A DNA stretch of 64,000 nt from Haliotis cracherodii (lineage: Eukaryota), in assembly GCF_022045235.1 (NCBI RefSeq), contig NW_027266273.1, positions 4,712,001-4,776,000 on the forward strand, read 5' to 3'. A program made the translations under genes and the position numbers. This document shows positions 36,501 to 63,800 of this stretch, piece after piece (the first letter of the stretch is position 1; every line of letters begins with the position of its first letter). The notes beneath the pieces are model-generated. The model was given only the letters and a program-made list of their open reading frames with translations. It was not told the DNA's origin and did not search any database.

Positions 36501-39500
36501 GAAAGACAAGAAGTGAGTTGCTAGAGTAGTCTCCCCTTGCCCATGGTGACTGATTGCGTATGTTATGACTTGCATTTTGTCAAGCATTTCAATTTCATGA
36601 TGAGAACGGTAATTACCTTAACAGTTACTAAATGATTGCGAAGATTAGTATTAATTTTACAGACATTTTTTTAGCATAGGAATTAAATCCAGAAGACACA
36701 ACCTGCCCACAAATCTTTCAAAGAGGAGAATGTACAGTAGTATTTGTAGCTTGTTGTTTCGGTACATATTCACTTTCTGAACTGCAACTTTCAGGCAGAG
36801 GATGACGATCGACGAGGCGTTGGCCCACCCCTGGTTGAATGTAAGTACTGCTTCTACCTACCTTGTGTTGCTGTCATCCTCTCATCTGTCCTGGGACATA
36901 CACTGCTTTAAGTGTGGCGGAGGCATGGCTACAGTCTCCAGTTTGGGAATGAGCTATGTGTAGTATTGTACATCATCGCGGAGCCCTGTGTCCCCACTAA
37001 CTGCTGGGGGCTTGAAGGGAAACTACACTTGGGCCAGTTGGCAGTTGGAGCAAATTTGATTCAAGTCTTTCAAACCAAAATTATTTGTCAGCAAACTCAA
37101 AATTTACATTGATACCAGCTTTAGTCAGAATAGTCACGCTTTTAGAGATGCCCTTAAGTATAAGTCAATACCGTATTTACCATATAAAGCCCCCTTATTA
37201 ACTTCTACGCCAACATCTGAGTAATTTTTATAAATGTCCCCTGATAAGACCAGAAATGTACATGACGGTCCATATTTACGGAACTCGGCACTATATGACA
37301 GTTATTAAACTGCCCAACTTTTATGACATTTTTTACATTACATTTTGTTCACAACTTTTGTTCACTTGTGCCCAATCTTTCAAAACAAATTTAACTTGTT
37401 GTTTCTGGTGTTGATAAGCATCCCCCTTTGTCAAGTTTCCAGGGCGCTTATTACGGCAAATACGGTACATTTAATTCTATCTGACTTTTTTCATTAGCAT
37501 TGTTATGCAGTTTAAGAATAGTTGGTATTTCTTTTACAAATGCAGCTGATAAAATTCTTTAACTGGATTTTTTCAAGACTTTCTAATTGTTACATATACT
37601 GTCAGTTTGAATATGATTTGGGATACAGGATTAAGATGGTGATGTTTGGTTCTGAGGGGTAAAGAACCTATAATGTATCGGAACATTTGAAAAGCGACTT
37701 AGTATTTTACGCTTGTTACAAGCTAATTTGTCAGAATATATCTTATTGTATTGTGACAAACTGTAGAGGCATATACCTTTCCTTAACCTAGGAGCATGGT
37801 GCTGACCTTTGACATCAACCATTCCATATCATATCCTTCATCAACCATTCCATATCATATTCTGCAACAATTATAAGGGATGGTGGGGAAGCCTAGTGGG
37901 TAAAGCATTCACTCGTCACGCTAAAAGGCCTGGGTTTGATTCTCCACATGGGTACAATGTGTGAAACCCAAATCGGGTGTTTCCACGGTGATGTGGCTGG
38001 AATATTGCCAAATGTTGGGTAAAATTTTATTTGCCCATCTATTCCGTACCATATTCATCTTTAAGGGTGGAATTTCATTTTCATCATCACTTTGAATTGA
38101 TGATTCCTCTATTGTGCATTGTGAGCATAGTCATCTTCATCAACAGCCAGGCATCTTCATCAACAATGATATGCATTGTTATACATGCAGTGGTGTATAA
38201 ACCATGATATCAGTCATATCCATATATCATTGTATCATAATATTCATTGTTATTAACTGTGGAACTTTGTTGTCATCTAACTGGTAAACTGTACAATGCC
38301 ATATTCTGGGTTTTTTATAGAAATTATATAACAATTTTTCTGATTCAGTTCTAGACTGTTCATAGAGGATTAAATAGGGCGTAATTCTTTTGCTTAAGAA
38401 GTTTCTTTCAAAACCATAGAGTTTTATGGGCAGCCATCTGGTAAAAAAATACAAGGTCATTATTTACATACAAACTGTGAATTCAAAATACCCCAAAATA
38501 CAAATGAACAATTAACTCGGAAACAAAAGATGTCATATGTAGAGAAAGAATAATGTGTATGAAAGAACGTCAGTGCACAAAAAGGACACTAAACTGCTAA
38601 AGTACATCATTGGCAATAAAGAAAGCTAGATGGTGCTGCAATTTGTAAATGATATTTTATTTATTTGGCTTGTTCCTCCGTGTAGATGATAAATACGTGC
38701 CGAAGTGCTCATTGTATTTAATCATTCCTCGTGCACTCAGTTTGATGGTTAAACTATGATACGCAAAAATTGAATTGCAAAATTAGAAAAGAAATGCAAG
38801 TGATTTCTAAAAGTGTTTTGGAGAGGAACAAAAAAAATTTGTCAGCAGATCGGTAAACCAAATAATAACTAAGAAATGTTATTGTCAAGCATATTTCAAA
38901 TAGCATGTCCTTTAAAAAAAAAATCATTCTATATTTGTAAAGTGTCAACTACTTTTGACATCCATGAATCATCATCAAAATATAAAGGATTGTAAATCAT
39001 CATGTCTTATGATCTTTTATCACAAAAGACCCTTGAAGATCCGGAGTAGAATAGGTCTTCAGCATCCCATGCTTGCCGTAACAAGCGACTATACCGGTAC
39101 TTGTCATTAGAGGAAACTAACGTTATCGGGTGGTCAGACTCGCTGACTTGGTTGATGCATGTCATTGATCCCAATTGCGTGGATCAATGCTCATGATATT
39201 AATCACTGGATTGTCTAGTCCAGACTCTATTATTTACAGACCGCCGTCATATAGCTGGAATATTGCTGAGTGCGGCGTTAAACAACAAACCAAACAACTT
39301 TTAGCACAAAATGTACATTCACGTTGACCAACTAGGTTATATCCTGTTTGTTCACCTGAAGTAATACAATGTAATTACTGAATGCACTTAATACATTAGA
39401 CAGCAATGTTTCCCGAAATGGGTAACCAAGTAAGGGGTGTGTGCATTCCACACAAGCAAGATGATAAATATTAACTGAGACAAGGCAAGTCCAGGGCCCA

Positions 39501-42500: not shown

Positions 42501-45500
42501 GCAATCTCCAGTCTTTGTATGGTAGACCGGTGGTATAGATGCTAGTTACCTGACACCTTGTTAATACCACTGGGTAAACATAGGTACATCTTTAACTGGT
42601 TACCTAAAGGTCATAATAGGCTATGCCACATCTGGTTGTATTTTCTCATGAAGTGAATATCAGTCAGTAAGAAGATAGTACTGCGGTCAATAAGAGGTGG
42701 ATTTGTTTCAGTATAGTGTTTTGAAACCTGAGTGGAATATATATAGTATCCAGTCTGGGTTTTGTTTCATAATGTCATTAATGAGATGGCGATTTATTGT
42801 AAATACTGAGAAGAAACGAATATTCAAGTTTTGAAAGAGATGTTGATTCCCTGTGTTGTGTCCACAGAACTGCCAGAACATGCCCCCATTGTGTACGAAG
42901 AACTGGATGATGTCACAGGTTACGAGGGGTCAAGGACACAGTTGGCATGCAAAATCATTGGGAAACCAGCCGCAGAAATCATGTGGTAAGTTGGTGTGAA
43001 TTTGTATTGTTTGAAATATTCGCAAGGGCAGATCCAGAGGCATGTTTCAGCACGGCTGATTTCTCAGATGTGTGTTCCGATGTACAATTTTGTACAATGT
43101 TTGTGCCACGTTATATAGAAATACAAGCCCTGTATACAAGTCTCTCCTTGTATACTCTGAATTGATTTACGATTTCAGTTGTCAGGTACCCTAAGGTATT
43201 TGTGGGTGGAATAGATCCCTAGTATGTATATTCATTGTAAGAGAGGGGCACGGGTGTCCCAGTCGTCTAAGGGGTAGAGTTGTGCAGAGTTGCATCCCTT
43301 GGGCACGCCAGAAACCTATGATTTTGGGTTCGAATTCCAGTGCTCTGATTATGTTTCTAGGTATGTCAGGACCATACCCATGCTCGTGGGTTTCACCGAA
43401 GTGGTTAACGTCTGAGACCTGCATCACTTCGGGCTTTCCTCCCACATTAAGCTGACACGCCGTGATATAACTGAAATACTGTTAAAAGCGGCGTTAAACC
43501 CAACTCCCTCACTCATTGTAAGAGCCAGCTAATTGGGGATCAGGTAGTTACTGTCTGTGTGACCTGGGCCCATTCTATAAAGTGTTCGCAACTCTTACAC
43601 AATTATATATCCAATACATAAACAGAGACATACATTCATTGTAGCGCTAAGATTACTTCATGGAATGATTTTCTCCCTGAGTGAAATTGCTCTCATTTGC
43701 ATTTTTGATAGTAGAGTGGATCTGCCCTTGATATTAAATTTTCAAAATATTGGCTTTATGTACACAGTAAGTCTGAGGTACTCTGGTTGGTTTATAAAAA
43801 ATTTGTGCAACAAAGCAAAATTGTGGACAGTGTTACACACTTAAATGTGTGATTCACGCAGCTTCAGGTGGAAGATTTAAGCCAGTAGTCAGCCTCTTAT
43901 TCAGGTGCACATTATGAAGACTGTGGGTATACCTATCAAGGTGCAGTACTTGATGTACCTATGTGCTCATCCTCAAGACAAGAATATCCCAGATTATCAC
44001 AGCTTCTCTTCCATGCTGTGTATTTTGGCAGCGCTGATGATGAGAGTTACACCTTTACCAGCACTTCTGCACGTGTTATGACATTATTTGTGCATCACAA
44101 AACAGATGCACATCTTGATGCAGAGATCTGACATTCAAGTACGTGATAACTTGTGGGTTGTATAACATAAAGTCATTCAGTGCCACTTAGGCCAACCTCA
44201 TTGCATTGTGGTAGGAATCTGCAGTTGAAGGATTTGATACACTCAGAAACACTGGATCGAGTGAGTTTGGCTTAACAGTATTCCAGGTACATCAGACGTG
44301 TTAGTTTAATGTGGGAGGAAAGCTCAAAGTGATGCAGGTATCAGACGTTTTCCAGGGATATGGTGTGGACAAACCTAGAAACATCATTGGGATGAACCAG
44401 GATTCAAACCAGGTTCTGTTATCCCAAAGGATGCAACTCTGCGCAGCAAAGTGGGCCACCTGTGTCCAACCAAAATCACGGGAAAGAGATAAACAACACT
44501 TTTTCAGACACAAGCTTTTTGTCCTTTTCATTTTTTGGCCCCATCTTTACATTTCATGGAATAAAACTTGCATTACAATACATGGTGTTTTGATTGTAAT
44601 AGGTAAACAAGAAATAGGTCACATCCCGTCATTATTATCTTTGTTCTGCTGAAGTCGAGGTGGTTTTAATGGAAAATACGTGGTGGTGTTATAGGGAAGA
44701 CATGGTTTTACTGGGGAAGATGTGTGGTGTTATGGGGAAGATGTTCTTTTACTGGGAAAGATGTGTGGTGTTATGGGGAAGACATGGTTTTACTGGAGAA
44801 GATGTGTGGTGTTATTGGGAAGACATGGTTTTACTGGGGAAGATGTGTGGTATTATGGGGAAGACATGGTTTTACATGGGAAGATGTGTGGTGTTATGGG
44901 GAAGACATGGTTTTACTGGGGAAGATGTGTGGTGTTATGGGGAAGACATGGTTTTACTGGGGAAGATGTGTGGTGGTGGTGATGCCGTTTGTCTATGTAG
45001 AAGAAGTATGCTGGGTAGTCATTACAAGTCCCATGGTTTGTACTCAGCCTGTCTGCAATGTTATTCTTCGCTATTTGATCTGATGAGGTTCCAGAATCAT
45101 TCATTGGCTTCATCACCTGCGCTGAACAGATGGTATATGAGCCATTAGATGGTTGCTTAACGAAGAGATGCTCCATCATGAGAAGGCACACCGGTTGTGC
45201 AAGTAAATGTCCTTTACATATTTTAATGTAGTTTTCAAGGTTCTTTAAGCTGAGGAGAATGATAAATTAGGTACTTTACACATTTTCGGATTCAATCTTG
45301 CTGATGACAGCTGCTCTTTTTATGGATTAAGTGGTTTGTTTTAATCAAGTTAGCCACTTAAGATTAGTGTTTCGATGACAAAAACTCTTTTCAAACAACA
45401 CATCCCTGATGTCAACTGTTCACCTACTGTAGACTTATTCTGCTATTCTGGTCATGGTCATATTGGACACTACTTGAAGGTCAGCTGAGAGAGCACTGTG

Positions 45501-48500
45501 TGGCCATGTCTGGCTACAGTGGCTGGGGTCCTGTGTATGAGGACTTCTACAGCACCATGAGGTATGACCTAAAGTTGCGAGATGGTCGTATGCCTTTACT
45601 TCAACACTTTTCGAGTTTCGTCTCTGGGAGCTATGTTGTAAGCACTGGAGTTAAAGTGCATTCCCGTAGATGTCGATTCAGATCCAACTACAGGTAAATA
45701 ATTGTCACTGCATACCAGTTTCAAACAGTCACATCATGATATGCAAGGTATTTCTTTCTCTCAGTATGATATGGACCAAGTCTTCACTAATTTTAGACTT
45801 TTTGTCTTCATTTTTGTGAAGCACAGAATTTTCTTCCTATTGAAGTAAAATTCATTGGATGACCTTCAAACATGTCAAAATGTCATCGTTTATTTAAAGC
45901 AGATATGATATAAGGCCCTATGCCTTTTGTCTTGTGTGCTCCTAAGCCACTGTAACAGATATGTTATTGGGACAATACCATCTGTTTGTTGGCTTATAAG
46001 CCACCTTAAGAGAAATGTGATCAGGACAATACCATCTTTTTGTGTACTGATAGGCCAATGTAACAGATATGTTATTTGGACAATATCATCTGTTTGTGTG
46101 CTTATAAGCCACTGTAACATATATGTAATTTCATGGACAGTATCATCTTTTTTGTACTTATAGGCCACTATAGGGACGGTCGGGTAGCCTAGTGGTTAAA
46201 GCGTTCGCTCGTCACGCCGAAGACCCGGGTTCGATTCCCAACATGGGTACAATGTGTGAAGCCCATTTCCGGTGTCCCCCGCCATGATATTGCTGGAATA
46301 TTGCTAAAAGCGGCGTAAAACCAAACTCACTCACTAACTCACTATAGGCCACTATAAGAGATATGTTATTTGGACAGTATCATCTGGATGTGTGCTTATA
46401 AACCACTGTTAGGTATACAAGTCCCAATACCATATTCTTGTGTACTTATAAGCCACTGTAACAGATGTACTACAAGTCTCAATACCATGTTGTGAACTTA
46501 TAAGCCATTTGAACAGATATGTTATTGCAGCCATTCCTTCTTCTCGTATGCTTACAAGCCTCTTGAACAGATATGTTACTGGTCCAAGTTCCACCTTCTC
46601 ATGCTCTCATAAGAATGATATAAACATCCCAGTGTGTCTGACATTTGTGTGGGGGACCCCATGTCTAACACAGGTAGACTGTGAGTGGCTCTCTTACGTC
46701 TGTGTGTTAGGTCCCTGCAACAAATGCCACATGAAATGAGAGATATCTACTGGTAGACATGATGGAAATATCAAACATAGTTTCTTTGTGAGTAACACAA
46801 AGTCCCAAACTGAGATGGGATGACAGGCATCATGGTGGTGTTTGTAGAAAATGAACTTACGTAAGTTGTTTTTGAGAGCATTGTTGTATTGAAAACTGTT
46901 TTTAATGATTGAAGTACAGACAAAATTATGTTATTTAAGATCAAACGACGAGTGAAAGTTGTTTATCATACAGAAGTGTTTTATTGTATGATATACAACG
47001 ACCACGAGTCATTTATTTCTTATTTGAAATATCAACATTATGAACAGCCTCTTTGGGGATGTTAATATAATGTATAAGTTTTAAAAATATTTATCCAAAT
47101 TTAAATAATGATGGGACCCTGAATACAGTTTGATTTCGGCAGTGTTGGACGAGTCTCTTATGTGAAAAGTGGGGTTAAGTTTGGTATTCCCCTGATATTC
47201 TCAGAATTTTCTCGTTGATTTTTTGTTCCTTATTCTCCTAATTCCGATAACTATTATCCTCAAAATGAAGCCGGGTTTTTTTCATACTGAAAAAAATTAC
47301 TCTTAACACATACTGTTGGTTGTGAAGTGCTGTGGCTTCAAAAAACGATGTGAAACTATTTCAGCAATTTAAACAACACGGACACTAGCTATCAAATAGA
47401 AAGATTCACAAGGTGACCTACATGTTGGGACTGACTGCATATGTTGTGAGGTATGTGTCCTGGTCTGCAGCCATAGAAACAAAACTTGAACTTGAGGAGG
47501 ATATTGAGTTAAAAATGCTAATTTCTGTCAGTTATCATCTGAGTAAACAGTGGGTGTGGTTGAAACCCTCATCAGACTACCACCATTCCAACAGATGATT
47601 AATGTGTGAAGAGAGAGGTTTCACAGAGCTATATCTAGACACAGGTGATTGTGTTGCTGCACAGGTGGTGGTGAGATGTACGCCACTGTGGGGGATGCAA
47701 GCGTTATCACATGGGGAGTAGTGATGGACTGTATGCCTCCAAGGTGTTACTGATAGGCGGGACTGTGTTACCGTGTTATGACGTTAGTTGTGAGTTAATG
47801 TTCTGCTGTCATGAGAGCACTGTTAAACATGTTATTTTGAATGAGGTTTGAATGTTTCAAGTTCCTGACATTTCTGGCATTGTTTAAATTTTAGCTAAGG
47901 CGTTCCATTATTTGCATGGTTTATGGATCCAATGACCTTAAGCACTGAAAATTCAGAAAAAAATGAAATCAGAGTCACAGACTTTTTCCATACCACCGAC
48001 TGTAAAGTTCGCTTTGACAATAAAATTGACAGTAGAATGCCGCTGTCATTTTTTTACAAATATAATATTTGTAAGGATCTGAACCAGGGCAAGGTTATTA
48101 TGTTATTTTTTTTCACATTCCAACCCAAATCCAATTTTAGGATGATTACAAAAATCCTGTAACATGCATCTTTTTTGTTGGGGCTGTCCTCAAGTCCTGC
48201 ACAACATCACGACAAATAGCTGCACGCTTCCTTAGTCTCTCGCTCATGTACAATATGAGTGCTCGACTAACTTCCAGATCAGGAATTTAAATAGTTAATA
48301 TGTAAATGTTCTGAAGAAGGCGATATTCAAATGTTGTAATTACCATGAATACAACAATGTTTTCACCTAAAAAAATAACCCCTGGTGTAGCTTTCAAATT
48401 GTAATAATTTGTAGCTATATAACATTGAATTGAATCAATACAACAATCAACAAGTACCAAGAGGAGAAATCAAACTAAATGGATATTCATATTAACAATA

Positions 48501-51500
48501 ATTAAAGCATCATTGATGGATGGGGAATGCTTAAATGGATTTGTTGTGCTCTTACAATTATGTTGGATTTTCTATCAATTCAGTTTCACTCCTTCATGTT
48601 TTTGAAGTACAGGTTAATGCACCTTTTCAATCAGTTTTCACTTACCTCCATCTTTCATGAATGTTAGATATCCCTGCCCAAAAATTATAAATTATTAGTA
48701 TATATATCATATATCATATGGTATAAGGGGCAGTGGGGTAGCCTAGTGGGTAAAGTGATCGCTGGTCTTGCTGAAGACCTTGGTTTGATTCTCGACATGG
48801 GTTCAATGTGTGAAGCTCATTTCTAGTGTCCTCTGCTGCGATATTGCTGGAATATTGCTAAAAGTGGCGTGTAAGCCATACTCACTCACTCATATAGAAT
48901 AGTTAGTCTGTCTTACAGACCCTGATACAAATATATATCAAATACAGCCCATGCAAGTCTATAATGTTTGGCAAGTCTAGATTACTGCAGTAAATGAAAA
49001 TGAAGAGAATCACTGGGCACCTTTTTATTATATTTTATTAAGATAACTGAACAACTGGTTTTTTTCTGTACGATATGTTCATTTCATAGACTAGTCTAAT
49101 AGAATAGTATAAACAGTGGTTTGATTCATTACTATCTAGTATAAAGCCACACTGAAGACAATTAGCTGTCCGACTTTAGTGGATGATGATACTGTTAACC
49201 CATTAATAAGAAGCATCGGATACAGTGATGCTTATGTTAAAGTCATCTTGATATGTAACTTACCTGCATATTTCAGTTCGTTTACCTGATGCCTGGCACG
49301 AAATAATCACCTGCTGCTGTGTATGCCATGTAGCAAGCCTTGGCAGGTGATGGGTGGGGTCGATTTAGTGATGAGAGAAGCATGCAGGAAGGGGGTTGTT
49401 TATCAGGGTCTGGTTGCTAATAGCAACGGTTCCAGTTTTACCCCCGAGAGGATGGTGTCAGGTTGGCTAATGTTTTAACTCCCGTCTTCATTCCTGCTAT
49501 GGAACTTGGTCCCTTCAGTACTTCTGAACCAGTTTTAGACCTATACTCACTCAATCACTGTCAAATTTATGCTGTTGTAAAGCAACACTGTGAAACCTTT
49601 ATCATCCATTGCATTTGTACAACATGTCTTCACTGAACATTCCTCTGTAATTTAAAAACAAACACATTTAAATGTATTCAAATTTTTATCCAGACAATAA
49701 TGCTTTAGCCTTCAAGGAAAACCAAAAAATATTTGAGAGCTAAAATAAATCTAAATTGTTGCCAAAGTTATTTTAGGAGCCACCTGACACTGTTTCTACC
49801 TGCACGTGAGTGTTTGTAAGTATGTAGGCGTGTGTCTGGGGGAGTAGGTCAGTGTGTACCTCTCAAGGGGAATCTGCTGTAGGAGTCGGATGTCAGACAG
49901 ATAAACAACTTCTAGCATTGCCAATACTCCTTCAGTAATCATGCTTTCACTGGCTTATTTTCGGGCTGGTACAGGAGCATGTGACTAGTGTACCTTTAGA
50001 AGGGCGTTACTGCTATATATTCCTATCTTACAGTGTTGTTGGGTTTATTTCTCGGCTAGGAATTCCTACGGAATAATAATGATTATTTCATTTGAAATGT
50101 TCAAATTCTTTAGGTATAAGTGAAATTTAAATGAAATTTAAAAAATAACATATTAAGATGAACATTTAGGATGTAAGTTTGACAGTGTAATGAATACCAG
50201 GTCAATACAAGGTATTTATTTTCCAGTAATTCAAGATCACATGTCTGATATTGTAGAATAGGAAAATACTTTTTATAAGTAAATAATTATGGTATTAAAT
50301 ATTTTGACAATATGATGCGTATTCTGGTAGGATGGAGTGTTCTTTATGATTCACCAAGGTACGTGCTTTGTGGTAATGTTTCCCCTGACATTTTAACTAA
50401 TTTCCTGCGATTCCGAAACGAAAGGTCACTGCTTACGTCAGTGTACCCTGTCACTTGTACAGAGCAGTCAGAGTTGTTGGTCTTGAATCTCTGCCAGTTG
50501 GACACCAGGTGGCGCTGTTTTGGTCATGCTCAGGCAATGAATCGCCAGTATATGGTTTCTCAACATTCACAGAATAACAAGTTATCAAACTAATCTGATA
50601 ATAAGAAATGCCAGAAATATTTACAACCGAAGATTAAATTCAGATTCAAATATAGAAAATTATCTATTCTTCTATGATAAAGGAACTTATAAAGTATGTT
50701 TTATGTATGTAAGACATGTAACTTCTTTAAATGTTTTATTGGTAATGAGACTTAGGAATGTGCAGATTATAAATATTGTGGGCTGGTTTGGCAATAAATA
50801 CCTGTAGTGGCTCGCTGGCTTAGCAGTTATATAACTCTGTGTTTATCATGAAAGATAATAAGGAGCTACATGCTTGAGGCTGTGTTAATTATGGTGGTTC
50901 AAGGCAGTGGAGGAATGGTTGTGATCACACTTTTTATCATCAAACTCCGATATCAAACTGTGAGGTTGATGTATGTGGAGGTTGTTGATGTATGTGGAGG
51001 TTGCATGGGCTATGTTAGAACATATTCTTAGTTTCTTCTCACATTCCTTGTTTATGTCAATAAATATTTACTTTTTCTTCATCATGAGATGATATGAACA
51101 TATTTGACAAGACAGTATAAGTATTATATTCATTTAATACTACCCAATGAAGATCGGTCTTCGACAACCCATACTTGTCCCAGTAGGTGACTAACAAGAC
51201 TGAGTTGGTGCATGTCATCATATCAGCATAGATCAATGCTCATGATGTCAGTCTTTGGATTGTTTGATTCAGACTTGATTCTTTACAGACCGCTGCAATA
51301 TATCTGGCATATTCCAGATTGGGGCTTTAAACAAGGAATGAACAAACCATCATTCAATTCTGAGAAATATTCTGGATTCTCATTCTGATTTGTTTTGGAG
51401 TGCCAAGAAGATTAAATAACAAGGTTTACACTACCAAGATAGTGAAAATCAATCTGGGATGCGGCCATTTGTGAGATGCTATGTATAGACACTAATGATC

Positions 51501-54500
51501 ACAAATGAGACAGAAGCTCTAAAATATCCAATAGCAGACCAAATTGCTCCAGACAACTTCAATGAGACCCAGCTAGTTCCCTGAGCAGAAACTCATTTCT
51601 GTCAGAGCAGATTACACCATGTGTGTACCATCCATTAAGTATTTCACAAACTCCTGGAATTTTTTACAACCAATCTCTTGAAGCTGCTTCAGTTTTCCGT
51701 CAGGAAGCGGGGCTGTTAAACCTGGCATGAATGAGGAGTTGGTAACATCTCTTGAAAGAAACAAGTGTTGGTATGCTGTTAAACAAACTGTAAACCCCAG
51801 ACTTCCAAGTACCCGTGGACAGCTTTTTATGCTACTCAGAAGAAGTTAAAAAACAACTGATTTTTCATGTGATTAGTTAATATGACATGGCTGGTAGGTA
51901 TTGCAACAAAGAGCCTTCCAATTGTGGGCTTGCTTTAACTTGTTTTGAGTATAGTATATATAAGGGTTCTTTCAACTCTGTTCAAAATCATTCAAAATTG
52001 TGTTTAAGATAAAGAATTGTAACCTTTTTGTAATTCTTTTAAAATATTTACCAAGAATTTGTTATACTTGTAGTGATATTTTTATGACATTAAGTGATAA
52101 ATTCCCATATAGAGGCATAGTCTTATGAATGTCAAGTACTGTATTTGTTGAATAAACAATTGTGTCAAAATAATAGCCAAAAAATAAATTGATCCAAATC
52201 AACACTCACTATCTCATGTTAATTGTTTAGTTCCATTATCTAAGTTAAGTCTATATATTTGCATATTTATCTACGGCAAGATCTACCTCTTTCAATACAA
52301 AACATATATGTAGCAAGCCAAGCTTCCTGCTTGTAAAATATACAAAGATGTTTCTGGTTCAAGAATCAAAGAAGCAACAAATCTTTAAATAACATTTTTC
52401 AGTCCTCATCACTGAAAGAATGCACAAAGCTATGGCGTAGTTTACGACTGACCTACTTAACTGTTGCACATAAACACTGGGAGAAAATAGTTTGATCTGA
52501 TGTAAAGCATGCGCAGTGGTTACCCTGTCGGGAAGCTATTGTCAGGAACAGGTGTAGATGATGCCGTCATCAGCAGCCATGGTGCAAGAAGCCCCTGATG
52601 GAAGATGACCCTCAATTATCTATAAACAGTCTCGATATAACACTGAGGACGAGCCAAGCTCTAACACTGTAGAGACTTTTTTTATGTACATGTCAACATT
52701 ATCTATTTAGAAAATTAAAAATAGATTCACCCTTAAATATTTATCCTGGTTCAAATTACTTTCTCTTAAGATTTTACTCTTTGCAATGCCATAATTAGAT
52801 TTTGGATCAATTTCAAGGTAATGATGATATATAGTTAGTTATGATGAAAGGAATATTTTCCAGTTTATCGACTGTTCTTAATAAACTATTAATTATCAGA
52901 TTATCTAGATAAAACCTATCATCAAGCATTCCATCCTTATCAAAATGTTCCAAAAATGTTGGTATGTTTCTTAATGAAAACGTCAAACATTTATGAATAG
53001 CATCAAATCAGGTAAAAATAGCTCCACCCAACAGTTTCATGCAAAACAAGTGTTAGACATTTTAAAGCCGTGATCCAATCCTGAAGGTCAGAGAGTAATA
53101 TTACAAGAGTATTTGTGTGGACAGGCGTGCCCCACATGTGTGTTATCACAGCCGATATCTCCCTGCAAGGTAGAACCTCTACAGGTATACCATCATGTCA
53201 GCTGGATGCGCCGACGTAACTAAAGGTTCCGTTCTTGGCACAGGCTTAGATCATTCCAGCTCTGACTTCCTCTGTTTTTTGTTGGCGTGTAGGTGAAATT
53301 CCTCCTCTCTTGCTCCTCACACAGTCTGGTAGCTTTAGATCGGTGTAGGCATTTGTTCTTTAATTCTCCCATTTCACGTTTTGGCGTAGATGTTTATCAC
53401 AGTTTTTTGTCTCGGATCCGGTGGAACAAACTGACTTTTGAGACACATCTTGGGTCTCGTTTCCATTTGAAGGGCACTTTTGATATTGGGATAAAGTTTG
53501 CTGTGGAGTTTTAATTTTCGGACCCTTCATTATATTCCTTGTTGGATATTTGGGTTTTCATCATCACAAAACCTGATTGTTCTGCTTTTCCATTTTGGAT
53601 GGACTGTGTGCTGTGACTTCAAAACCGTTTGGAGAGATTGTGTGGAGCTGTAGCTAATTTGGCTTGTTGAGTCACAAAGTTTTCGAGTTGTGACTCTTAT
53701 TCTTCATTGTGGATTAAAGTGACTAAGTCAGGTTGTGGTTTTGAAAATCAGTGAATATTCATTGTGGAATTTCGCACCACAATGAGCCAGGAATAATAAT
53801 ATTTTGAGAGTGATAATTTTTTTGTGGTGTTGTGTGAATCTAGCTACCTGCAATCATGAGTTTGATGTTTATTTTGCCCAATCATAAGTGCCCTTCAAAA
53901 GACTGTCCATTCCATGCATCCGAGATGTCATCCAAAAAGAAACTATTTGAGGCCCCTGCTGAAGAAATACAGCTAGCAGGGGCCACTGGTGCTGGAATTG
54001 AAGATGGTGGCAAATTGAGAAAAGGTCCAAAAAAGAAAATCCGAACGGCATGGAAGACTGCGGATGTGGAAGCTGAAGAAGAGAGAAGAGGAAGTATGAC
54101 AGGGAGTGTGGCTGAGGACGATGTTGTGACGGTGTTGTCTGTTGACACGGGTAATGAGTCGGGGTCAAGTGAGTGTGAGGCCAGGTTTACACTTGGGTCT
54201 GTGGCAAGTGACAAAGTAGATGTTGAAGACGTAGAAACTGAATTTTACGCCGACACTGGAATTGATTCCCTGGCTAGCGATGATGTACATTTGGATGATA
54301 TTCAGGAAGAAACCGCTGATATTGCCCTTACAAAACTTGAGAAAATTGAAGAAATGGAAATGCCACTTGTTGAACAAGATATTGAGGAGTTTGATGTGGA
54401 TGATATAAAAGAAGAAATAGTTTTTGCGACGGAACCTGAAGTTCCTCTTGTGAGTACTGCCACGGAACAGGAGCTCATTCTAAAGTCGGAGGAACAGGTT

Positions 54501-54817
54501 GTTGAAAGTGCTGTGGCCGTTAGGGTTGTACGAGAGGTTTGTGAGGAAATAAAAGTTGCAAAACATGTGGTTGAGACGCAACAAATATACACAACAAACA
54601 TTCAGGAGGAGGTAATCCAGTCCGAGACACTGACAGAGACACATGTGGCAGTGGAAAGGTGCGTGTTGTCAGGCCTCAGTGTAATTCAACCTTGGATAGG
54701 ACGTAGTGAAAGTCAGGTTTGATAAGCTGCTTCTAATCGTCAAGGAGAGGTAATAGGCTATGATTCCTGTAAATGTTTTGAAATAACAGTGACTCTTCAC
54801 GTCATCTGCCCTCAGAA

Positions 54818-54852
<35 letters not shown>

Positions 54853-57800
54853 CATACATGGTCAAAAATGATTGTGATGGTGTCTATCTTCTCGGTCAAA
54901 TCATGGTCAGAGTACTTGATATATTACCTTGGTTAATGTGTCAGAGTGCATTCAAATTGCATTTTCAGCTCCCTGGGGAGTATAATTAAAAAAAAAACAA
55001 TTCTGTAAGCATAAAACAGATAATCAATACTCTCATCTGAGCTTAAGTAAAACATTAAGTCAGTTATGACATAATTTGTCAGCCACAGAAGCTAGTATGG
55101 CTGTTGATGACCTTCACCTTGCTTGCATGTTGTTATTGTTAGAGCTGTATTCTGAGAATGGAAAAGAAAGCTGGATGAGTTCAGGTATTCCAGTAGACTA
55201 CATTCATGGGTGAATATGATATCTTCACCTCATTGTACCAGTTTTTTCAGTATATATTTTAGTAACACATTTATGATTTTAAACATCTATGCATCCGCTG
55301 AGATCTTCTCATGACCACTATCAGGAACATGTTACCATGGAAACCTATGTCAGAACAACATGGTATTCCTATTCGAAAGGGAAATAGAAAGACTACGTCA
55401 AATCACTTTTTGGCATGTTGCTCAATAAATGCATGTTCTGAATCGGTTCCAAGTTTTACACCAAGAACCTGCCCAAGCATTTCAAGTGTTGCTAAGTGAT
55501 TTTATATATACTGCTGGGTATTTGTATGTACTTACTTTAAACTGACAGATTGGAGTTGTTTTAATCCTATCATTATCCCATAATTCCTCTGCCACAAATT
55601 TTGTTGTGTGAAGATATCTGAAAAAAAAACGGTAGGAAGTTGTTAAGAGATTGATAGGAAGATTAGATGTTTCGCTTGGCTCACAGGGCAGATATTAGCG
55701 TTAATCTCGGCTGTATTTGCCATTATGAACTGTATAAAAAGCACTTGCATCCACTTGATAAACTGCCAGACGTCTGGGAAGCTGCTTATGAGATTTATCT
55801 GCAGGAAAAGTAACGTTCTTACTTGATTATTTTCTCTTCTTTGTAATCAAATGGTTATCGGTGTAATTGAAACATACATATCTACCTAAGAACTTGTTTT
55901 GACTTTATTTTTATGGGAGTGTGATATTAGTTATAGTTTGATGATAGTTGTCATTCATGGTGCCTCATATATAGCTTGGGGGTATACTAAAACGAATTCG
56001 AGGATTTTCTTGGATATTCAGTGTTATTGGTCAAGAGCTGACCAAGCTGTTTATTTCATCACTGTCTGTTGTTGGTGTGATCCTGTGCAGAAGTATATTA
56101 GTCACTACAGGTCTAATCAAGACTTCTTTTTGGACTTTTTGTGAATTTTAATGAGGTTTGCTTTTAAGGCTCAGTTGACATATTACATGGGACTAGGCCT
56201 GGTTCAATTGGCAGTTCCAGCAAGTTTGATTCAAGTACGGTATTCGACGTAATAAGTGCCCCGCTCTAATAAGCGTCCACGGCAATATTTGCTAATATAT
56301 TGACTAGTGCACGATCCCAGTTAGGACCCCTTCCAATTGATCAATGTACACAAGACTTACTTATTCGTGTATAATGCGCACTCATGTGTTATATGCACCC
56401 TCAATTATGGGCAATTCAACTCTGGAAAAATATATCTGTCGTATGTAAACATTTCAGGCTGTCAGCATAAACCACGAAATTTACGATTTTTCAACCAAAA
56501 TAATATTCTAATAAGAGCCCCCTATTTCTAATTTTGAGAGGGCCCTGGGAGCTTATACGGTAATTCAAATCTCACTTTGTTGTTTGATGAGTCAAATTTG
56601 CTCCCGTATGTCAGTCTAGCAGATAGCAATTAGCCTAATTACACAGAGACAGTGTCCTATTGGCTTGAATCACAGGTTCTTCTGTCAGTACCTTACCTTT
56701 GCTTGGGTGTAAAAGTCTTTAAAAGTGACTTCAGGCTTTTGGTATTTAATTCAAGTTACTCACTAAGTTATCCAATCTTTGTAACTGTTAGGGGGCGGTC
56801 GGGTAGCCTAGTGGTTAAAGCGTTCGCTCGTCAAGCCGAAGACCCGGGTTTTGATTACCAACATGGATACAATGTGTGAAGCCCATTTCTGGTGTCCCCC
56901 GCCATGATATTGCTGGAATATTGCTAAAAGTGGCGTAAAACCATACCAACTCAATTGTAACTGTTTGGCCACCATGTTGTGCAATGTATCGTGGACCATA
57001 GTGATGTACTTAGTAACTCTATGCAAGCGGCCCACCTCGGGCTGATGTGTGGTGGAGTGGTTGTAAGGTAGCTGTAAGGAACGTAGCATGTTGTTGTTTG
57101 TAACCTTCTCCAGGATGTTGCTGATGAGGGTTCCCATGGAGACTGGAATATTACATGTGTGACTTTACAGGAGAGATTTGTTTGTTCTTGTTCCCTGTGT
57201 CTATGGTGGCATATTAAAGATGTAGGGTCAGAAGGACGTTCTGTTGTATATGCGAGGAGATGGGTTCCAATGAAATAATCAGTGAATCTGAGACTGGACA
57301 TCGCCAGACCATCCAGACAAACTCAACCAAAGTTTAATATTGATCACCTGTGACTGTTGTCTCATGTGGGGAAAAGAGTAAAATGTTACAATCAACGACA
57401 TTCACAGAAAATTTGAAAAAACCTGTGTGACCACTCTAGAAAGAGCTACAAAGTCTCTGGTCTATATTTAATTTATCTTTTTCCCTTCCAGGTTGAAAGA
57501 TGGTGAAGAAGTCCTCCCAAGTCCACGTGCCAAAGCCACATACAAAGATGGCATGGCAACACTTGATCTCAAAGACCTTGAACCTGAAGATGGAGGGAAA
57601 TACACCTGCCGTGCTACCAACAGCTTCGGAGATATTGAAACCACAGCAAATCTCAAAGTTGAAGGTCAGTACGCTTCTCGTGTGAACAATGGTGGTGAAG
57701 ATGAATGGTGTGTCTGGAGAGTATCAGTTGTTTTATTCTAATCTTTCATATCTGTATGTCTTCTAATATAGAAGGATAACATATGCATTTAATTTCAGTA

Positions 57801-60800
57801 ATATTTGATGAGTGATGGGATGTTTTTAAATATATATAGCAATGGAGGTGATTGTATATTTTGAGTTATTATTGGTGTTATTTTTGTTTTACAGAAGTTC
57901 GCCACCGTAGAAGGAAGAAGGCTGAAGAGGCCAAACTCAAGTGAGTGTTTTGGAATATTTTAGCCAATCAATAGCATTTTTAGTGACCTTCATTCCATTA
58001 TTCTTGTAGAATATCAGGTACAGGATCAGGAGGGAATGTACTATCTTAGTCATGAATGACATGGTATGATTATGGAAGTTTCCTACAAGGAAACATGGTC
58101 GCCTCAAACTAGTAGGCCTTCTGATGGGGTGATATTTATTTATTGTCAAATGTAGGTTAGACCGGTATTAAGTTTAATGACTAAGTCATCATCCATTTCT
58201 ACCTGGAAAGGGCGGTCGGGTAGCCTAGTTAAACCATTTGTTCATCACGCCGAAGACCCGGGTTTGATTCCCGACATGGGTACAATGTGTGAAGCCCATG
58301 TCTGGTGTCCCCAGCCGTGATATTAACAGAGATGATAATCTGATGATTACTTGTTCTGGGTGTCTTCGTGTTTCAAAAATGTAGATTAAGTGTTCAGATC
58401 CTTGAGCCCTTGATGCTTTATATGATGCTGATAAGAGTCTATCCCCATAGATGGTTTATGCCATTTCCTGGAACACCCCAAGAAGTGTAACATCTTCATT
58501 GACATCTTCATTTCTCACCGCAGACAACTTAAGAAGGAAGTTTCAGAAGTTGAGGCCGACATCCCCCCAGAGTTCACACTGCCTCTGATCGACCAAGTAG
58601 CACCAGTGGGAGACTCCATTGAGTTGACTGTCACAGGTATGTTAAGTGGAGGAAACAGATGTTTGTGAATAGACCTTGACATTTTTTCTTTCAGAATTTT
58701 GGCAAGATGCTAATATATTTTGACCCATTTGTATGCTCTGGCTCACTGCTGGATGCTGACAAGGGACTGTGACACTTTGGGACTGTTACAGGTATGTTTG
58801 GTGGAGGAAACATGATCCTTATGTTGAAGAAGAACAGATATCGATGTTGGTGTATAGACCTTGAAGTTTTTATGCTGTATTTTTGGCAAGATGCTAATAT
58901 GTTTTGACCCATTTGTATGCCCTGGCTCACTGTGGGACTGTGATGGTGTGGCATGTTGCTCAGACTCTCAACCACCGGTTGTCTGATCCTGACCTGACAA
59001 TGAACAGGTGTCCATGGTATATCTGAACCATTGATGTTTGAGGCCATCCACTCATTCTATGCCTCATCCTGCCATACATGCATGCTAGAACACTGTCACA
59101 TTATGTCTTGACATGATGGATTTAAAATCAAGCTATAGCTCAGGCTTCCTGGTTGCATATTACTCCAGCTGCCTCAGTGCTCAGCCACAATAGTGTCTAG
59201 TCCTTCCGGGTACCCATTCAACAACTGGAAAGACTGTGGTATCATCATGTCAGATAACAATGTACTTTTAGACTTTTAGAGATGCAGAACACTTTGTTGT
59301 AAGGTGGATCTTTGACTGAATCTTTCAACAATGTTAATAGAAATTATTTATATCAAGATAGAATCTTCACTGGTCTCATTTATTGTCACAGTGACATGCC
59401 GACCTGAAGCCGAGGTAGACTTCTATCATGGGGATGAGAAGGTGTCGGCCGGAGGTCGCTTCAAACTGAAACAGGACAAGGACGTGTATAGTCTCATCAT
59501 CAGCGATCTCAGACTGGAGGATGCTGGAGAATGGAGCTGCCAAGCTACAAATGCATTTGGCAAAACACAGTGCTCATGTGACGTCCAGGTGCTTGGTAAG
59601 TCTTGTTTATAGTCTCCATGAAAATAAATGCCAGATATGTCTCTGTCACAGGTTTAGGTTTGTTGCAGGACGTAAGTTTCAGAAATTGTTTATCGCGCCA
59701 GTAAAATATATGCGAGATATTTTCTGTCATGGGAATAGATTTATAGGAGGACAGTATCAGTTTTAAAAATCATCTTTGATGTTAGGTCATTTAATCAGAA
59801 CTGAATTTGCAGGATGCTTGAAGACCCAGAGGCCATAAGGCTGTGGGATACACATTGTTTTTTCTATGTCCTTGTGCAGCAAGATGATGCGAAGCATTGT
59901 TATTGTTGAACTCATGCACCTTGCTGTGACATCACTGTTGTTCTGCTACAGACTCTGTGCCAGAAGGTTCCAAGAAGCCTCGGTTCACACGAGGACTGGA
60001 TGCTATGACCATCACTGAGGGCAGCAAGGCACAGCTGAAGTGTCGCGTCACCGGACTGCCACAGCCACAGATTGAATGGTAAGAAAGCATAACACTCTGA
60101 TCTGACTGAAAGTAAACGGTTAGAGTTGATTAGTTGAATGGTTTCAGTTCTTCTTAAAGTCTTCAAAATAACTTGAATCATACACTCAAAGTGACGACTG
60201 TGGGAGGTGTTCGAAGAGACTTTGATCAGACTTTTCATTCAGATTATCAAAATAGACAAGTGTAGCTAGCTATATTTCTCATATGAAATCATCATAAAGA
60301 AAAGCAAAATTTAAAAAAGAGAAATGTCTTGTGTAACAATAGATTATAACCGGTCTACCATAATTTCAGTGTTTTGTGATTTGTAAAGACATGCTCATGG
60401 TATTGTCTGAATCATAACATCAACTCTGCTGTCAGTAGAGATTTCTTTTGATTATGAAAAGGGTTTTGTTGCTTTTATTTGAGTAAGTAATTATCTTTGT
60501 TTCATTCAACCATTGTAAGGTTGTATGTCTGTTTTGAAATATTGCTTCTTGTGATGAGCATTACAATTATTTGAAAAAAAAAGCCTTCAAGCTGGCAATA
60601 AAGAGTGTCAGCAGTAAACAATTAAGTGGACTCCAGCTGTGGCTGTTGAGTGCTGATGGAGTCATCTCTCCTTCCAGGTACAAAGACAGACAGAGGATCG
60701 AGGCCAGTCACCACTACGAGATGATCCAGGAGGATGACGACGTTCACATTCTGGTTATAGATGGTGCCACCAAAGACGACACAGGGTCATACATGTGTCG

Positions 60801-63800
60801 TGCTGTCAATGAAGCAGGCTCTGCTTCTACAGAGGCCAGAATACGTGTACAGAGTAAGTGCATCGTGTATCTCAATTAGTTACCATCACCTGGATCACAT
60901 GTCAGTGTGAAGTTGGATTCTCTGTAAGCACTTGTTAAATCTCCAACATCATCAACAAGGCTTGGGCAATTCCTTTCGAATTTATATATGTTGATAGTAA
61001 TGGAGTTTTTCTGACACAGAGAGGATCCGGGGTAGAATAGGTCTTCAGCAACCCATGCCTGCCATAAAAGGCGACTATGCTTGCCGTAAGAGGCGACTGA
61101 CGGGATAGGGTGGTCTGGCTCGCTGACTTGGTTGATGCATGTCATCGTATCCCAATTGTGCGGATCAATGATCATGATGTCAATCACTAGATTGTTTGGT
61201 CGAGACTTGATTATTTACAGACCGCCGTCATATAGCTGGAAAATTGCTGAGTGTGGCTTTAAACAACATGAAACTGACACAGAGAGTTATAATGCTTGAT
61301 GGTGTGGAGCAGAGACAAATCAGAATTGAATGCAGATGGCTGAGTAATTGAATTAACAGGCACCATGATGTGTGACAGCGAGATAAACATCAGAGACAAG
61401 TTTAATAAACAATTTATGATTTCAATGAGCAGGAAAGAGATCATCATGCTGCTAGTGATACACTAAACCAGGGTAAAAAATGAAGCATGGAAATGATTTA
61501 GTGAATCTTGTATTGCAGAGGTGTCTGATCAAGAGATCCAGAGAGAGGACACCACCAGAGTGACTGCAGCGCCGACAAAACAATACCGATTCCAGATGGC
61601 GCCAGACTTCACTGTGAAGCTCCGGAACAAGTCTGTCCTGGAGAACAGCCATGTGAGACTGGCCTGCTCCGTCACTGGCATCCCTGACCCCACCATCAAG
61701 TGGTACAAGGATGGCCAGGACATCACCGACATGACCAGATACACCATCCTGGTAAGTGACATCTTGTTATTCAGGAAACATTGCGGAGATACCAGGCAGA
61801 AGATGTTCTGATTTTAGATTTGGTTATTGCTTTAATATAACTGGAATATTGCTGACTGTGGCTAGACATCAAGTAGATTTGTTATCTGTGGAGAACAACC
61901 AGTGAACCAAGAGGACCTTCAGATTATCTGTCCTAAGTGAATGAATCTGTCTTTCATCATTCAGTTATTGGGCATGGAGTATTGTGTGTTTTCAGTAGGT
62001 TATTCTCTACATTAGCAACACATGTAAACTCTACAAACAAATGTTAATGAAGTTTACCAGTTGTTATCAATCTGTGATGTCATGAACAAGTGATGACATC
62101 ATATTGGGTTGTTCACAGGATTGTATGTCACATGGCTTTAACTGACCAACCAGCTTTAAGAATCTCTAAAATGCTCCAATATTGTAAAGTTATTACACTA
62201 AATCATTTTAGGTCTGGGTAATATATTACATGAAGTGGGACTCCTGGAGCAGAATAGGACCCCTGAAGTCCCTGAAGCCTAATGGGTATCAGATGGACAC
62301 AATGGATGCTGATTTTGGCTTAGCATGAAGGAAATTCTTCCACTTTCAGTAGCATAGCATGGAGACAATCCATTGACACTCCATCATAACGGAGATAGCA
62401 CTGACTGTTAACTTGTATGTGGCTTTAGAAGACTGTGTGGAGGAACTATAATTTCTCCTGGTGTTTACAGAACAACTACGGCCTGCTGTCCCTGGAGATC
62501 CTGAGGACGGCAACATCCGACAGCGGCTGCTACACCTGCGAAGCCTCCAACTGCGAGGGCACCGTCACCTGCAGTGCCAGTCTTGATGTGCAGTGTATGT
62601 ACTCAACCCTTTATCTATGTAATACTTTCATTAAAATGCAAGTACAAAAGTAATCTTTTTCGACATAACTGTATTGACAATACCTTCATTATTTTACCCC
62701 AGGCCTGGATCGTATGTCCCCCGAGTTTGACCAGCGACCCCGTTTCCTGAACCCCCTGGGTGACATCTGCATCAGGGAGGGAGAGGATGCAGTGTTTGAG
62801 TGCACCGCCACTGGCAAACCATCACCCTCATTCAAATGGTAAGACACAATAGTACATTGGACAAGGAATTGGTTACACTGTTGGCTCATGCAGCAAGCTT
62901 AGCACGTTTTGTCAACAGATGATGGGGCCCAAAAGATGTGGTACATTCTGTACAGTATCTGGTTATAGTTAACATTAATTATGAACCTAAATAAACATGG
63001 CCACATGTCTACACCTCGGTGTGATGTTTAATGTACTTACTCACTCTACACCTGGGGCCACGGGTGGCCAAGTCGTCTAAGGCGCCGTGATTTGTTGTGC
63101 AGAGTTGCGTCCCTTGGGCATGCCAGAAACCTATGATTGTGGGTTCGAATCCCGGTTCGCCCCAATTATGTTTCTAGGTTTGTCAGCACCATACACGTGC
63201 TCGTGGGTTTCACCGAAGTGGTAAACGTCTGAGACCTGCATCACTTTGGGCTTTCCTCCCACATTAAGCTGACATGGCGCAATATAACAGGAATACTGTT
63301 AAAAGAGGCGTTAAACCCAACTCACTCACTCACTCACTCTACACCTTGAAAGATTGTTTGGGGCCATATAAATTATAACAAAGTTGCTGCTGATGTTGCT
63401 GTTGATGCTGATGCTGATGCTGATGCTGATGATTTGGTATTTATTGTTCCACTATTTGTTGTCATTTGATTCCAAGAGCCAACGAATGCTGTTTAGCAGT
63501 CATCCAATCGCAGCCTACAAAAAATCAGCCACTGTCTGTCTGCTTGTTTAAGTTGAAGGGGGCCAGTCGAAAGGACATCCTGAACACTTAAGCTTTTCTT
63601 CAAATATTTGACCAATTATTTTCCTTGGATGTACCAAATTTTCACACTAATATTAATTTTCCACTTTGTGAATGCCAGGCAAAAGGATGTGAGAGAAGTC
63701 TTCAGCAGTTCCAGAATCAACATCGAGTCGGACGAGGACGGCAAGGCTCGTCTTGTTGTGAAGAATGCCCGTCTTTCAGACTCTGGGCTGTATGTATGTG

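What the first reader, a model, noticed from the sequence alone, without database searches (positions are those of the whole stretch)
42986..57491. Array of phase-2 ATG mini-exons in the intron that splits the first post-kinase Ig
Seen: ATG-to-donor segments, all phase 2 and so in frame with exon 57492: 45506-45561 (or -45693), 46820-46860, 47422-47450, 50312-50358, 51727-51770 (MNEELVTSLERNKC+TG, which would restore the Ig Trp) and 53856-54658. Inference: variable first exons on a constant Ig tail, each starting in a half Ig domain. Caveat: in 14.5 kb some short phase-2 ATG-GT segments are expected by chance and I searched for them deliberately, so only the 53856 and 45506 candidates stand out independently.
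Basis: inference. Interest (0 to 1): 0.7.

Follow-up and report, generated by a model that had tools for sequence, protein, structure and literature searches.

The report
One nested start, no exon array
A giant snail muscle-protein gene has one extra, conserved exon inside a long intron, spliced onto its tail in RNA from related species and likely a second start making a shorter kinase-free protein, while the five other proposed mini-exons look like chance sequence.

Summary
The six ATG-to-donor segments exist as described, but only 53856-54658 is supported. In 4 of 4 RNA-like contig sets laid on exon 57492, exactly two upstream partners appear: the canonical 42985 donor and 54658. Three of four further runs imply the same junction. 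No mini-exon joins 57492. Phases of ATG-open donors are 19/26/29 (chi-square p=0.34); phase 2 is only slightly above shuffles (4 of 100; 4 of 200 without the real exon). Only 45506-45561 is borderline (19 of 200 shuffles reach its score). The real exon encodes 267 acidic, mostly disordered residues and is single-copy. Five 50%-clusters match it, one in the neogastropod Nucella, all with an invariant H-x-C-x4-C-x2-H motif. It is likely an internal first exon (contig 5' ends near 53.3 kb) giving a kinase-less isoform of about 1,750 aa: half an Ig, about nine Ig domains and one Fn3. This works like telokin, titin Cronos or stretchin-klp. Verdict: new member of a known kind; the array is not supported.

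The parts
34018..36840 (+). Kinase exons (six) of the host giant Fn3/Ig muscle kinase gene
   Evidence: Open gene model; best PDB matches twitchin and MYLK4 kinases
42868..42985 (+). Exon with the N-half of the first post-kinase Ig; canonical phase-2 donor TG|GTAAGT
   Evidence: Best donor of 1036 GT; joined to 57492 in 4 of 4 runs and in X3
42986..57491 (+). 14.5-kb phase-2 intron splitting the Ig at the C-strand Trp
53271..53855 (+). Likely 5' leader of the internal first exon (start not mapped); three short upstream ORFs (53390, 53599, 53782), in-frame stop 15 nt before the ATG
   Evidence: Contig 5' ends at 53197, 53271, 53300/53515, 53305 and about 53320, 53338, 53358 from lengths; uORFs; weak hint only, no DNA run laid
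53856..54658 (+). Coding part of the real alternative first exon: 267 aa + 2 nt, acidic (D+E 24%, pI 4.3), donor AG|GTGCGT
   Evidence: Spliced to 57492; homologs; single copy; 0 of 200 shuffles
53883..53915 (+). H-x-C-x4-C-x2-H motif (aa 10-20), possible zinc knuckle (inferred)
   Evidence: Present in 12 of 12 homolog sequences and the window; invariant columns; pLDDT 66 in an otherwise disordered N-terminus
54144..54269 (+). Two DTGxxS motifs (aa 97-102, 133-138), phosphodegron-like (likeness recalled, untested)
   Evidence: [DE][ST]Gxx[ST] in 11 of 12 homologs, absent in P0004
57492..57664 (+). Common acceptor exon, C-half of the Ig
   Evidence: Exactly three contigs touch it in each of 4 runs
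57895..63854 (+). Shared tail exons (four more Ig in the window; tail continues in L001-L004)
   Evidence: Eight GT-AG joints in 4 of 4 runs up to 62703
45506..45561 (+).
   Evidence: 19 of 200 shuffles reach its score; no junction; X3 contig reads through unspliced 45000-45987
46820..46860 (+).
   Evidence: 183 of 200 shuffles; an X3 contig runs on past the donor (table 3)
47422..47450 (+).
   Evidence: 185 of 200 shuffles; no junction
50312..50358 (+).
   Evidence: 137 of 200 shuffles; no junction
51727..51770 (+).
   Evidence: 197 of 200 shuffles; weakest donor; TG ends in 98 of 100 shuffles; the only TG-type partner is 42985

Best explanation
The intron holds one real alternative exon, 53856-54658, which is spliced in frame to exon 57492 in RNA-like contigs of related species and is likely transcribed from an internal promoter near 53.3 kb, giving a predicted kinase-less short isoform of a giant titin/twitchin-family muscle gene, while the five short segments are likely chance ATG-GT pairs. 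Shown: the junction, the open frame, single copy, conservation of the encoded peptide. Inferred: a first exon (about 550-nt leader, no 5' splice seen). Inferred: the product is about 1,750 aa, made of a 267-aa acidic disordered head with a possible zinc knuckle, a half Ig that lacks its N-terminal strands and has Arg for the core Trp (so probably an unfolded linker), about nine whole Ig domains, one Fn3 and a disordered end. Most likely job (by analogy with stretchin-klp and telokin, untested): a non-catalytic filament-binding Ig string whose amount is set separately from the giant kinase transcript.
For:: in X2, X4, X10, X13 (4 of 4 runs) three contigs touch exon 57492; the loose ends equal window 54627-54656 (one letter differs in X2) and 42955-42984 (one letter differs in three runs); contigs over 53197/53271/53515-54656 in X3, X5, X12 leave exactly 31 letters, and in X5 and X12 the tail contig starts at 57491, as the junction predicts (3 of 4 runs). 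Together 7 of 8 runs, four organism codes, seven study codes. Homologs at 97, 46, 32, 28, 30% identity, one named Nucella lapillus; all begin with Met within about 70 aa of the motif; the closest ones run off the presumed donor as R-C-V. No shuffle reaches the exon's score. AlphaFold2: disorder plus one helix 201-266, no strands to complete the Ig (mean pLDDT 52). Known analogues: PMC4530952, PMC4720518, PMC7391215, PMC12812942 (passages).
Against: X1 shows the exon (53305-54642) but no junction. No start site is mapped; contigs cannot show one and no DNA run was laid as control. Runs are only guessed to be RNA (exact GT-AG joints argue they are) and are not from the window's own organism. No spliced exon+tail protein was found in three searches of longer proteins (weak evidence). 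The genomic position of the distant homologs could not be fetched, so synteny is untested. The far tail model has one unresolved phase mismatch and a second MLCK-type kinase lies about 86 kb past the window end, so 'kinase-less' is not proven. Phase-2 segments are slightly above shuffles.
Confidence: 0.8

Rival explanations
1. Array of variable first exons: several short phase-2 exons, each with its own promoter, splice to the constant Ig tail in different tissues.
For: All segments are in frame. Phase-2 count is slightly above shuffles (4 of 100; 4 of 200). 45506-45561 is the best-scoring short segment and single-copy, and its bin has low contig depth in X1, X3 and X12. Contigs drop rare short tips and runs were picked by the 53856 exon.
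Against: 0 of 5 mini-exons joined to 57492 in 4 of 4 fully listed runs; the 31-letter remainder in X3, X5, X12 leaves no room for another AG-ending donor. Phases 19/26/29, p=0.34. Four of five are ordinary against shuffles. X3 reads through 45561, 45693 and 46860 unspliced.
Confidence: 0.07
2. Two first exons: 53856 plus a rare, tissue-restricted 45506-45561 (or a 42-nt cassette 45520-45561).
For: Best short candidate in two scorings; low depth in that bin in three runs.
Against: 19 of 200 shuffles reach its score; weak donor (rank 89 of 1036); no junction.
Confidence: 0.1
3. The 53856 coding exon is not itself the first exon: a short non-coding exon further upstream, or the main transcript, splices into its leader.
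For: A pyrimidine run and TAG precede 53294 (sequence); several contig ends lie at 53300-53360.
Against: X3 and X5 contigs run on unspliced to 53197 and 53271; no 5' loose end is evident in the listed pieces; that acceptor scores -11 bits; joining 42985 to the leader would bring premature stops. A non-coding first exon would not change the protein.
Confidence: 0.12
4. The short transcript runs past the Fn3 terminal exon into the downstream MLCK-like unit and so encodes a long myosin light chain kinase, as in Drosophila Stretchin-Mlck.
For: An Ig-Ig-Fn3-kinase-Ig unit lies on the same strand at G000:C10 about 4.844-4.867 Mb; X5 and X12 tail contigs both end at 3423 nt, hinting at a shared branch.
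Against: The Fn3 exon runs to a stop with polyA signals behind it; no Ig exon in the 28-kb gap; the first exon seen of the MLCK unit is phase 2, the last tail donor phase 1.
Confidence: 0.1

Closest known systems
Telokin/KRP of vertebrate MYLK (PMC4530952, passages seen)
   Same: Intronic promoter in a muscle kinase gene gives the non-catalytic C-terminal part as its own protein.
   Different: Telokin is 17 kDa and identical to the MLCK C-terminus; here about 1,750 aa with 267 unique residues, spliced into the middle of an Ig; no perfect CArG box in the intron.
Titin Cronos isoform (PMC4720518, passages seen)
   Same: Conserved internal promoter in an intron of a giant Ig/Fn3 kinase gene with its own in-frame Met.
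   Different: Cronos starts far upstream of the kinase and adds only 7-12 residues contiguous with the next exon; here a separate 803-nt coding exon lies downstream of the kinase.
Drosophila stretchin-klp from Stretchin-Mlck (PMC7391215, passages seen)
   Same: Unstructured N-terminus (455 aa) followed by 10-12 Ig domains, one of several transcripts of a large MLCK-family gene; assigned to densities on the thick-filament surface.
   Different: No sequence homology tested or claimed; stretchin Ig domains lie upstream of the kinase (recalled), here downstream; the HxCx4Cx2H head has no match in Pfam or PDB.
C. elegans UNC-89/obscurin (PMC12812942, passage seen)
   Same: Giant muscle kinase gene with three promoters and many isoforms.
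   Different: Its short isoforms keep the kinases (recalled).
Protocadherin/UGT1 variable-first-exon arrays (recalled, no paper read)
   Same: Only the idea of alternative first exons on constant exons.
   Different: Those are many long paralogous exons; here one single-copy exon.

Membership tests
Variable-first-exon array (Pcdh/UGT1 type; definition recalled) | Several first exons each spliced to the same constant exon | tested here: not met
   1 of 6 candidates joined; two partners only in 4 of 4 runs
Variable-first-exon array (Pcdh/UGT1 type; definition recalled) | Variable exons are tandem paralogs | tested here: not met
   First 125 aa of the exon match once in G000 at E<=1; mini-exon peptides show no likeness by eye
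Variable-first-exon array (Pcdh/UGT1 type; definition recalled) | Shared phase beyond chance | tested here: inconclusive
   19/26/29, p=0.34; slight excess over shuffles, 4 of 100 and 4 of 200
Internal-promoter C-terminal isoform (telokin/Cronos type) | Intronic exon with own Met joined in frame to shared C-terminal exons | tested here: met
   7 of 8 runs
Internal-promoter C-terminal isoform (telokin/Cronos type) | Own transcription start in the intron | tested here: inconclusive
   6 of 8 contig 5' ends at 53271-53358; contigs cannot map a start
Internal-promoter C-terminal isoform (telokin/Cronos type) | Short protein detected | not testable with these tools
   Needs western blot or proteomics
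Telokin proper | Protein identical to the kinase's C-terminal Ig region | tested here: not met
   267 unique N-terminal residues and about nine Ig domains
Telokin proper | CArG/SRF promoter (recalled) | tested here: not met
   0 perfect CArG boxes in 42986-57491
Titin/twitchin/MLCK giant kinase family (host gene) | Ig-Ig-Fn3-kinase-Ig order with twitchin/MLCK-type kinase | tested here: met
Twitchin proper | Ig-Fn3-Fn3 repeats and only two Ig after the kinase (recalled) | tested here: not met
   22 tandem Fn3 exons before and about ten Ig after the kinase

The most novel reading that the evidence does not exclude
The intron is a small bank of first exons after all: besides the conserved 53856 exon with its HxCx4Cx2H knuckle and degron-like motifs, 45506-45561 and perhaps others are tissue- or stage-restricted starts missed by contigs, so one Ig tail is given different N-terminal tags, all entering through a deliberately broken Ig domain.
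Probability: 0.08. Interest if true: 0.6.

Novelty: new member of a known kind. Interest (0 to 1): 0.3.

Why it matters
It removes a false array and leaves a solid, apparently undescribed isoform: a kinase-less Ig string from a gastropod giant muscle kinase gene. Its head peptide is conserved out to Nucella and has no family match. Internal promoters in such genes are well known (telokin, Cronos, UNC-89, Stretchin-Mlck), so a muscle specialist would find it useful rather than surprising. The long unique head with a conserved Cys/His motif and the splice into mid-Ig are the modestly new features and are easy to test. I found no description in 8 literature searches; subscription journals and genome annotations were not searchable, so it may already be an annotated isoform.

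Tried and rejected
Three homologous-protein searches of longer proteins (exon, Ig half-exon, alignment A1) gave no hit (weak). Pfam: no family for the window protein; 2 chance-level hits among 6 members. PDB profile search: one hit at E=0.26, ignored. Atlas: no usable hit for residues 1-130; second look unavailable. No run was on record as RNA (all 'RNA?' or '?'). Contig depths of the alternative vs canonical junction (30/3112, 72/422, 11/27, 12/23 in X10, X2, X4, X13) vary widely and hint at tissue-dependent use but cannot rank expression. The five coding differences listed were 2 non-synonymous and 3 synonymous: too few for a selection test. The idea that the exon's end supplies strands to complete the half Ig was rejected: that part is not conserved and is modelled as helix; no complex or fold search was run on the low-confidence model. 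The bacterial promoter scan is irrelevant to an animal. A missing exon between tail exons at extended positions 76985 and 79280 was not found; one search had a script error and only its exon table was used. The search of earlier findings returned nothing three times. PMC2908218 (TTN-1) is not held. No supplements were read.
Full report
Setting. The window is G000:C10:4712001-4776000 of a 1.18-Gb animal genome; a named homolog from Nucella lapillus points to a gastropod. A 46-exon model of the + strand translates to 3428 aa without a stop: 22 tandem Fn3 exons, Ig, Ig, Fn3, a kinase whose best PDB matches are twitchin and MYLK4, then Ig domains. The tail continues beyond the window to about ten Ig domains and an Fn3 exon that runs to a stop, with one unresolved phase mismatch. 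A phase-2 intron inside the Ig Trp codon is routine in this gene (31381, 42985, 60078, 62838), so the split itself is not special; its 14.5-kb length is.

Observation. With a donor matrix from the 46 true donors, they rank 14 to 124 of 1036 GT in the intron. At the weakest one's score there are 74 ATG-open segments, 19/26/29 by phase, chi-square p=0.34. Against dinucleotide shuffles phase 2 is slightly high: 4 of 100, and 4 of 200 after removing the real exon, uncorrected; 7 of 100 and 100 of 100 at stricter thresholds. Controls gave 8/9/14 (minus strand) and 20/13/19 and 19/13/12 (other long intron). On a codon-plus-donor score, 53856-54658 is reached by 0 of 200 shuffles, 45506-45561 by 19, and the others by 137-197. 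The Trp-restoring feature of 51727 is expected (98 of 100 shuffles).

RNA test. Eighteen transcriptome-sized contig sets of four related organisms hold the 53856 exon (RNA is the tool's guess); eight were laid. On the acceptor exon alone, each of 4 runs has exactly three contigs: the tail, one ending in the 42985 exon and one ending in the 54658 exon (loose ends match). On 45000-62900, one contig per run covers the leader and exon. In X3, X5 and X12 it leaves exactly 31 letters, the junction word, which also implies no second AG-ending donor; X1 has the exon but stops 16 nt short. So the junction is seen directly in 4 and by arithmetic in 3 of 8 runs, over seven study codes. No mini-exon junction was seen, and X3 reads through 45561, 45693 and 46860 unspliced. 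Limits: contigs drop rare tips, runs were selected by this exon, tissues are unknown, and one search's tables were cut.

The real exon. It encodes 267 aa, D+E 24%, pI 4.3, single-copy. A search of 1.84 billion representatives gave 5 clusters, 97 to 28% identical, sharing L-x-x-x-P-x-H-x-C-P-x-x-D-C-P-F-H and a TG-x-E acidic block. The H-x-C-x4-C-x2-H pattern is in 12 of 12 stored sequences and a [DE]TGxxS motif in 11 of 12. No Pfam, PDB or Atlas match. AlphaFold2 predicts disorder with one helix at 201-266 (low confidence overall). Six of eight contig 5' ends fall at 53271-53358, there is an in-frame stop just before the ATG, three short uORFs precede it, and the ATG has A at -3: a first exon is the simplest reading, but the start is unmapped. 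Whether the distant homologs sit in the same intron could not be checked.

Mechanism. Shown: splicing of the exon to the tail in frame, and conservation of its peptide. Inferred: an internal promoter makes a protein of about 1,750 aa without the kinase. The junction codon is Arg in place of the Ig core Trp and the N-terminal strands are missing, so the first half-domain is probably an unfolded spacer. Inferred by analogy: the Ig string binds filaments as a non-catalytic scaffold made independently of the giant transcript, and the head supplies localisation or turnover signals (zinc knuckle and degron likeness are recalled and untested). Confidence 0.8 for the structural reading, about 0.4 for the filament-scaffold role.

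Comparison. Telokin is transcribed from a promoter in MYLK intron 28 (PMC4530952, passages). Titin Cronos starts at a conserved intronic promoter with a Met 7-12 residues upstream of the next exon (PMC4720518, passages). Stretchin-klp is a 455-aa unstructured head plus 10-12 Ig domains assigned to thick-filament densities (PMC7391215, passages). UNC-89 uses three promoters (PMC12812942, passage). The locus works like these; it is not telokin, not twitchin proper, and fails the tests for a variable-exon array.

Verdict. One real nested first exon and no array. New member of a known kind; interest 0.3. The array reading keeps a probability near 0.08.

Noticed in passing
window:19833-20002: Strong phase-1 acceptor (12.4 bits, above the true median 9.1) followed by a degenerate Fn3-like frame ending in a stop, inside the 12.7-kb intron 16547-29279: likely alternative last exon that ends the protein before the kinase. 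The 2691-nt contigs in X4 and X13 fit exactly a branch at donor 16546 plus skipping of the 39-nt exon (2671+30-39=2662); inferred, not seen directly.
   Followed up: partly
window:39940-39978: 39-nt phase-0 microexon just after the kinase, in the regulatory-tail region; probably skipped in some samples (same arithmetic).
   Followed up: partly
L008:7663 to L011:1461 (G000:C10 about 4843.7-4867.5 kb): Smooth-muscle-MLCK-like unit on the same strand: Ig domains, a DFRxxL-type motif (motif recalled), Ig-Ig-Fn3-kinase and a telokin-like last Ig. Separate gene or far end of the same unit: unresolved.
   Followed up: partly
L004:8069-9183: Terminal exon of the tail: Fn3 followed by about 270 disordered residues and a stop, polyA signals behind.
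   Followed up: partly
Unexplained.
   Followed up: partly
window:44661-44975, 45932-46169, 46170-46340, 56790-56950, 58210-58320: 41-bp and 54-bp minisatellites and several copies of a very abundant short interspersed repeat (depth over 100,000).
   Followed up: no
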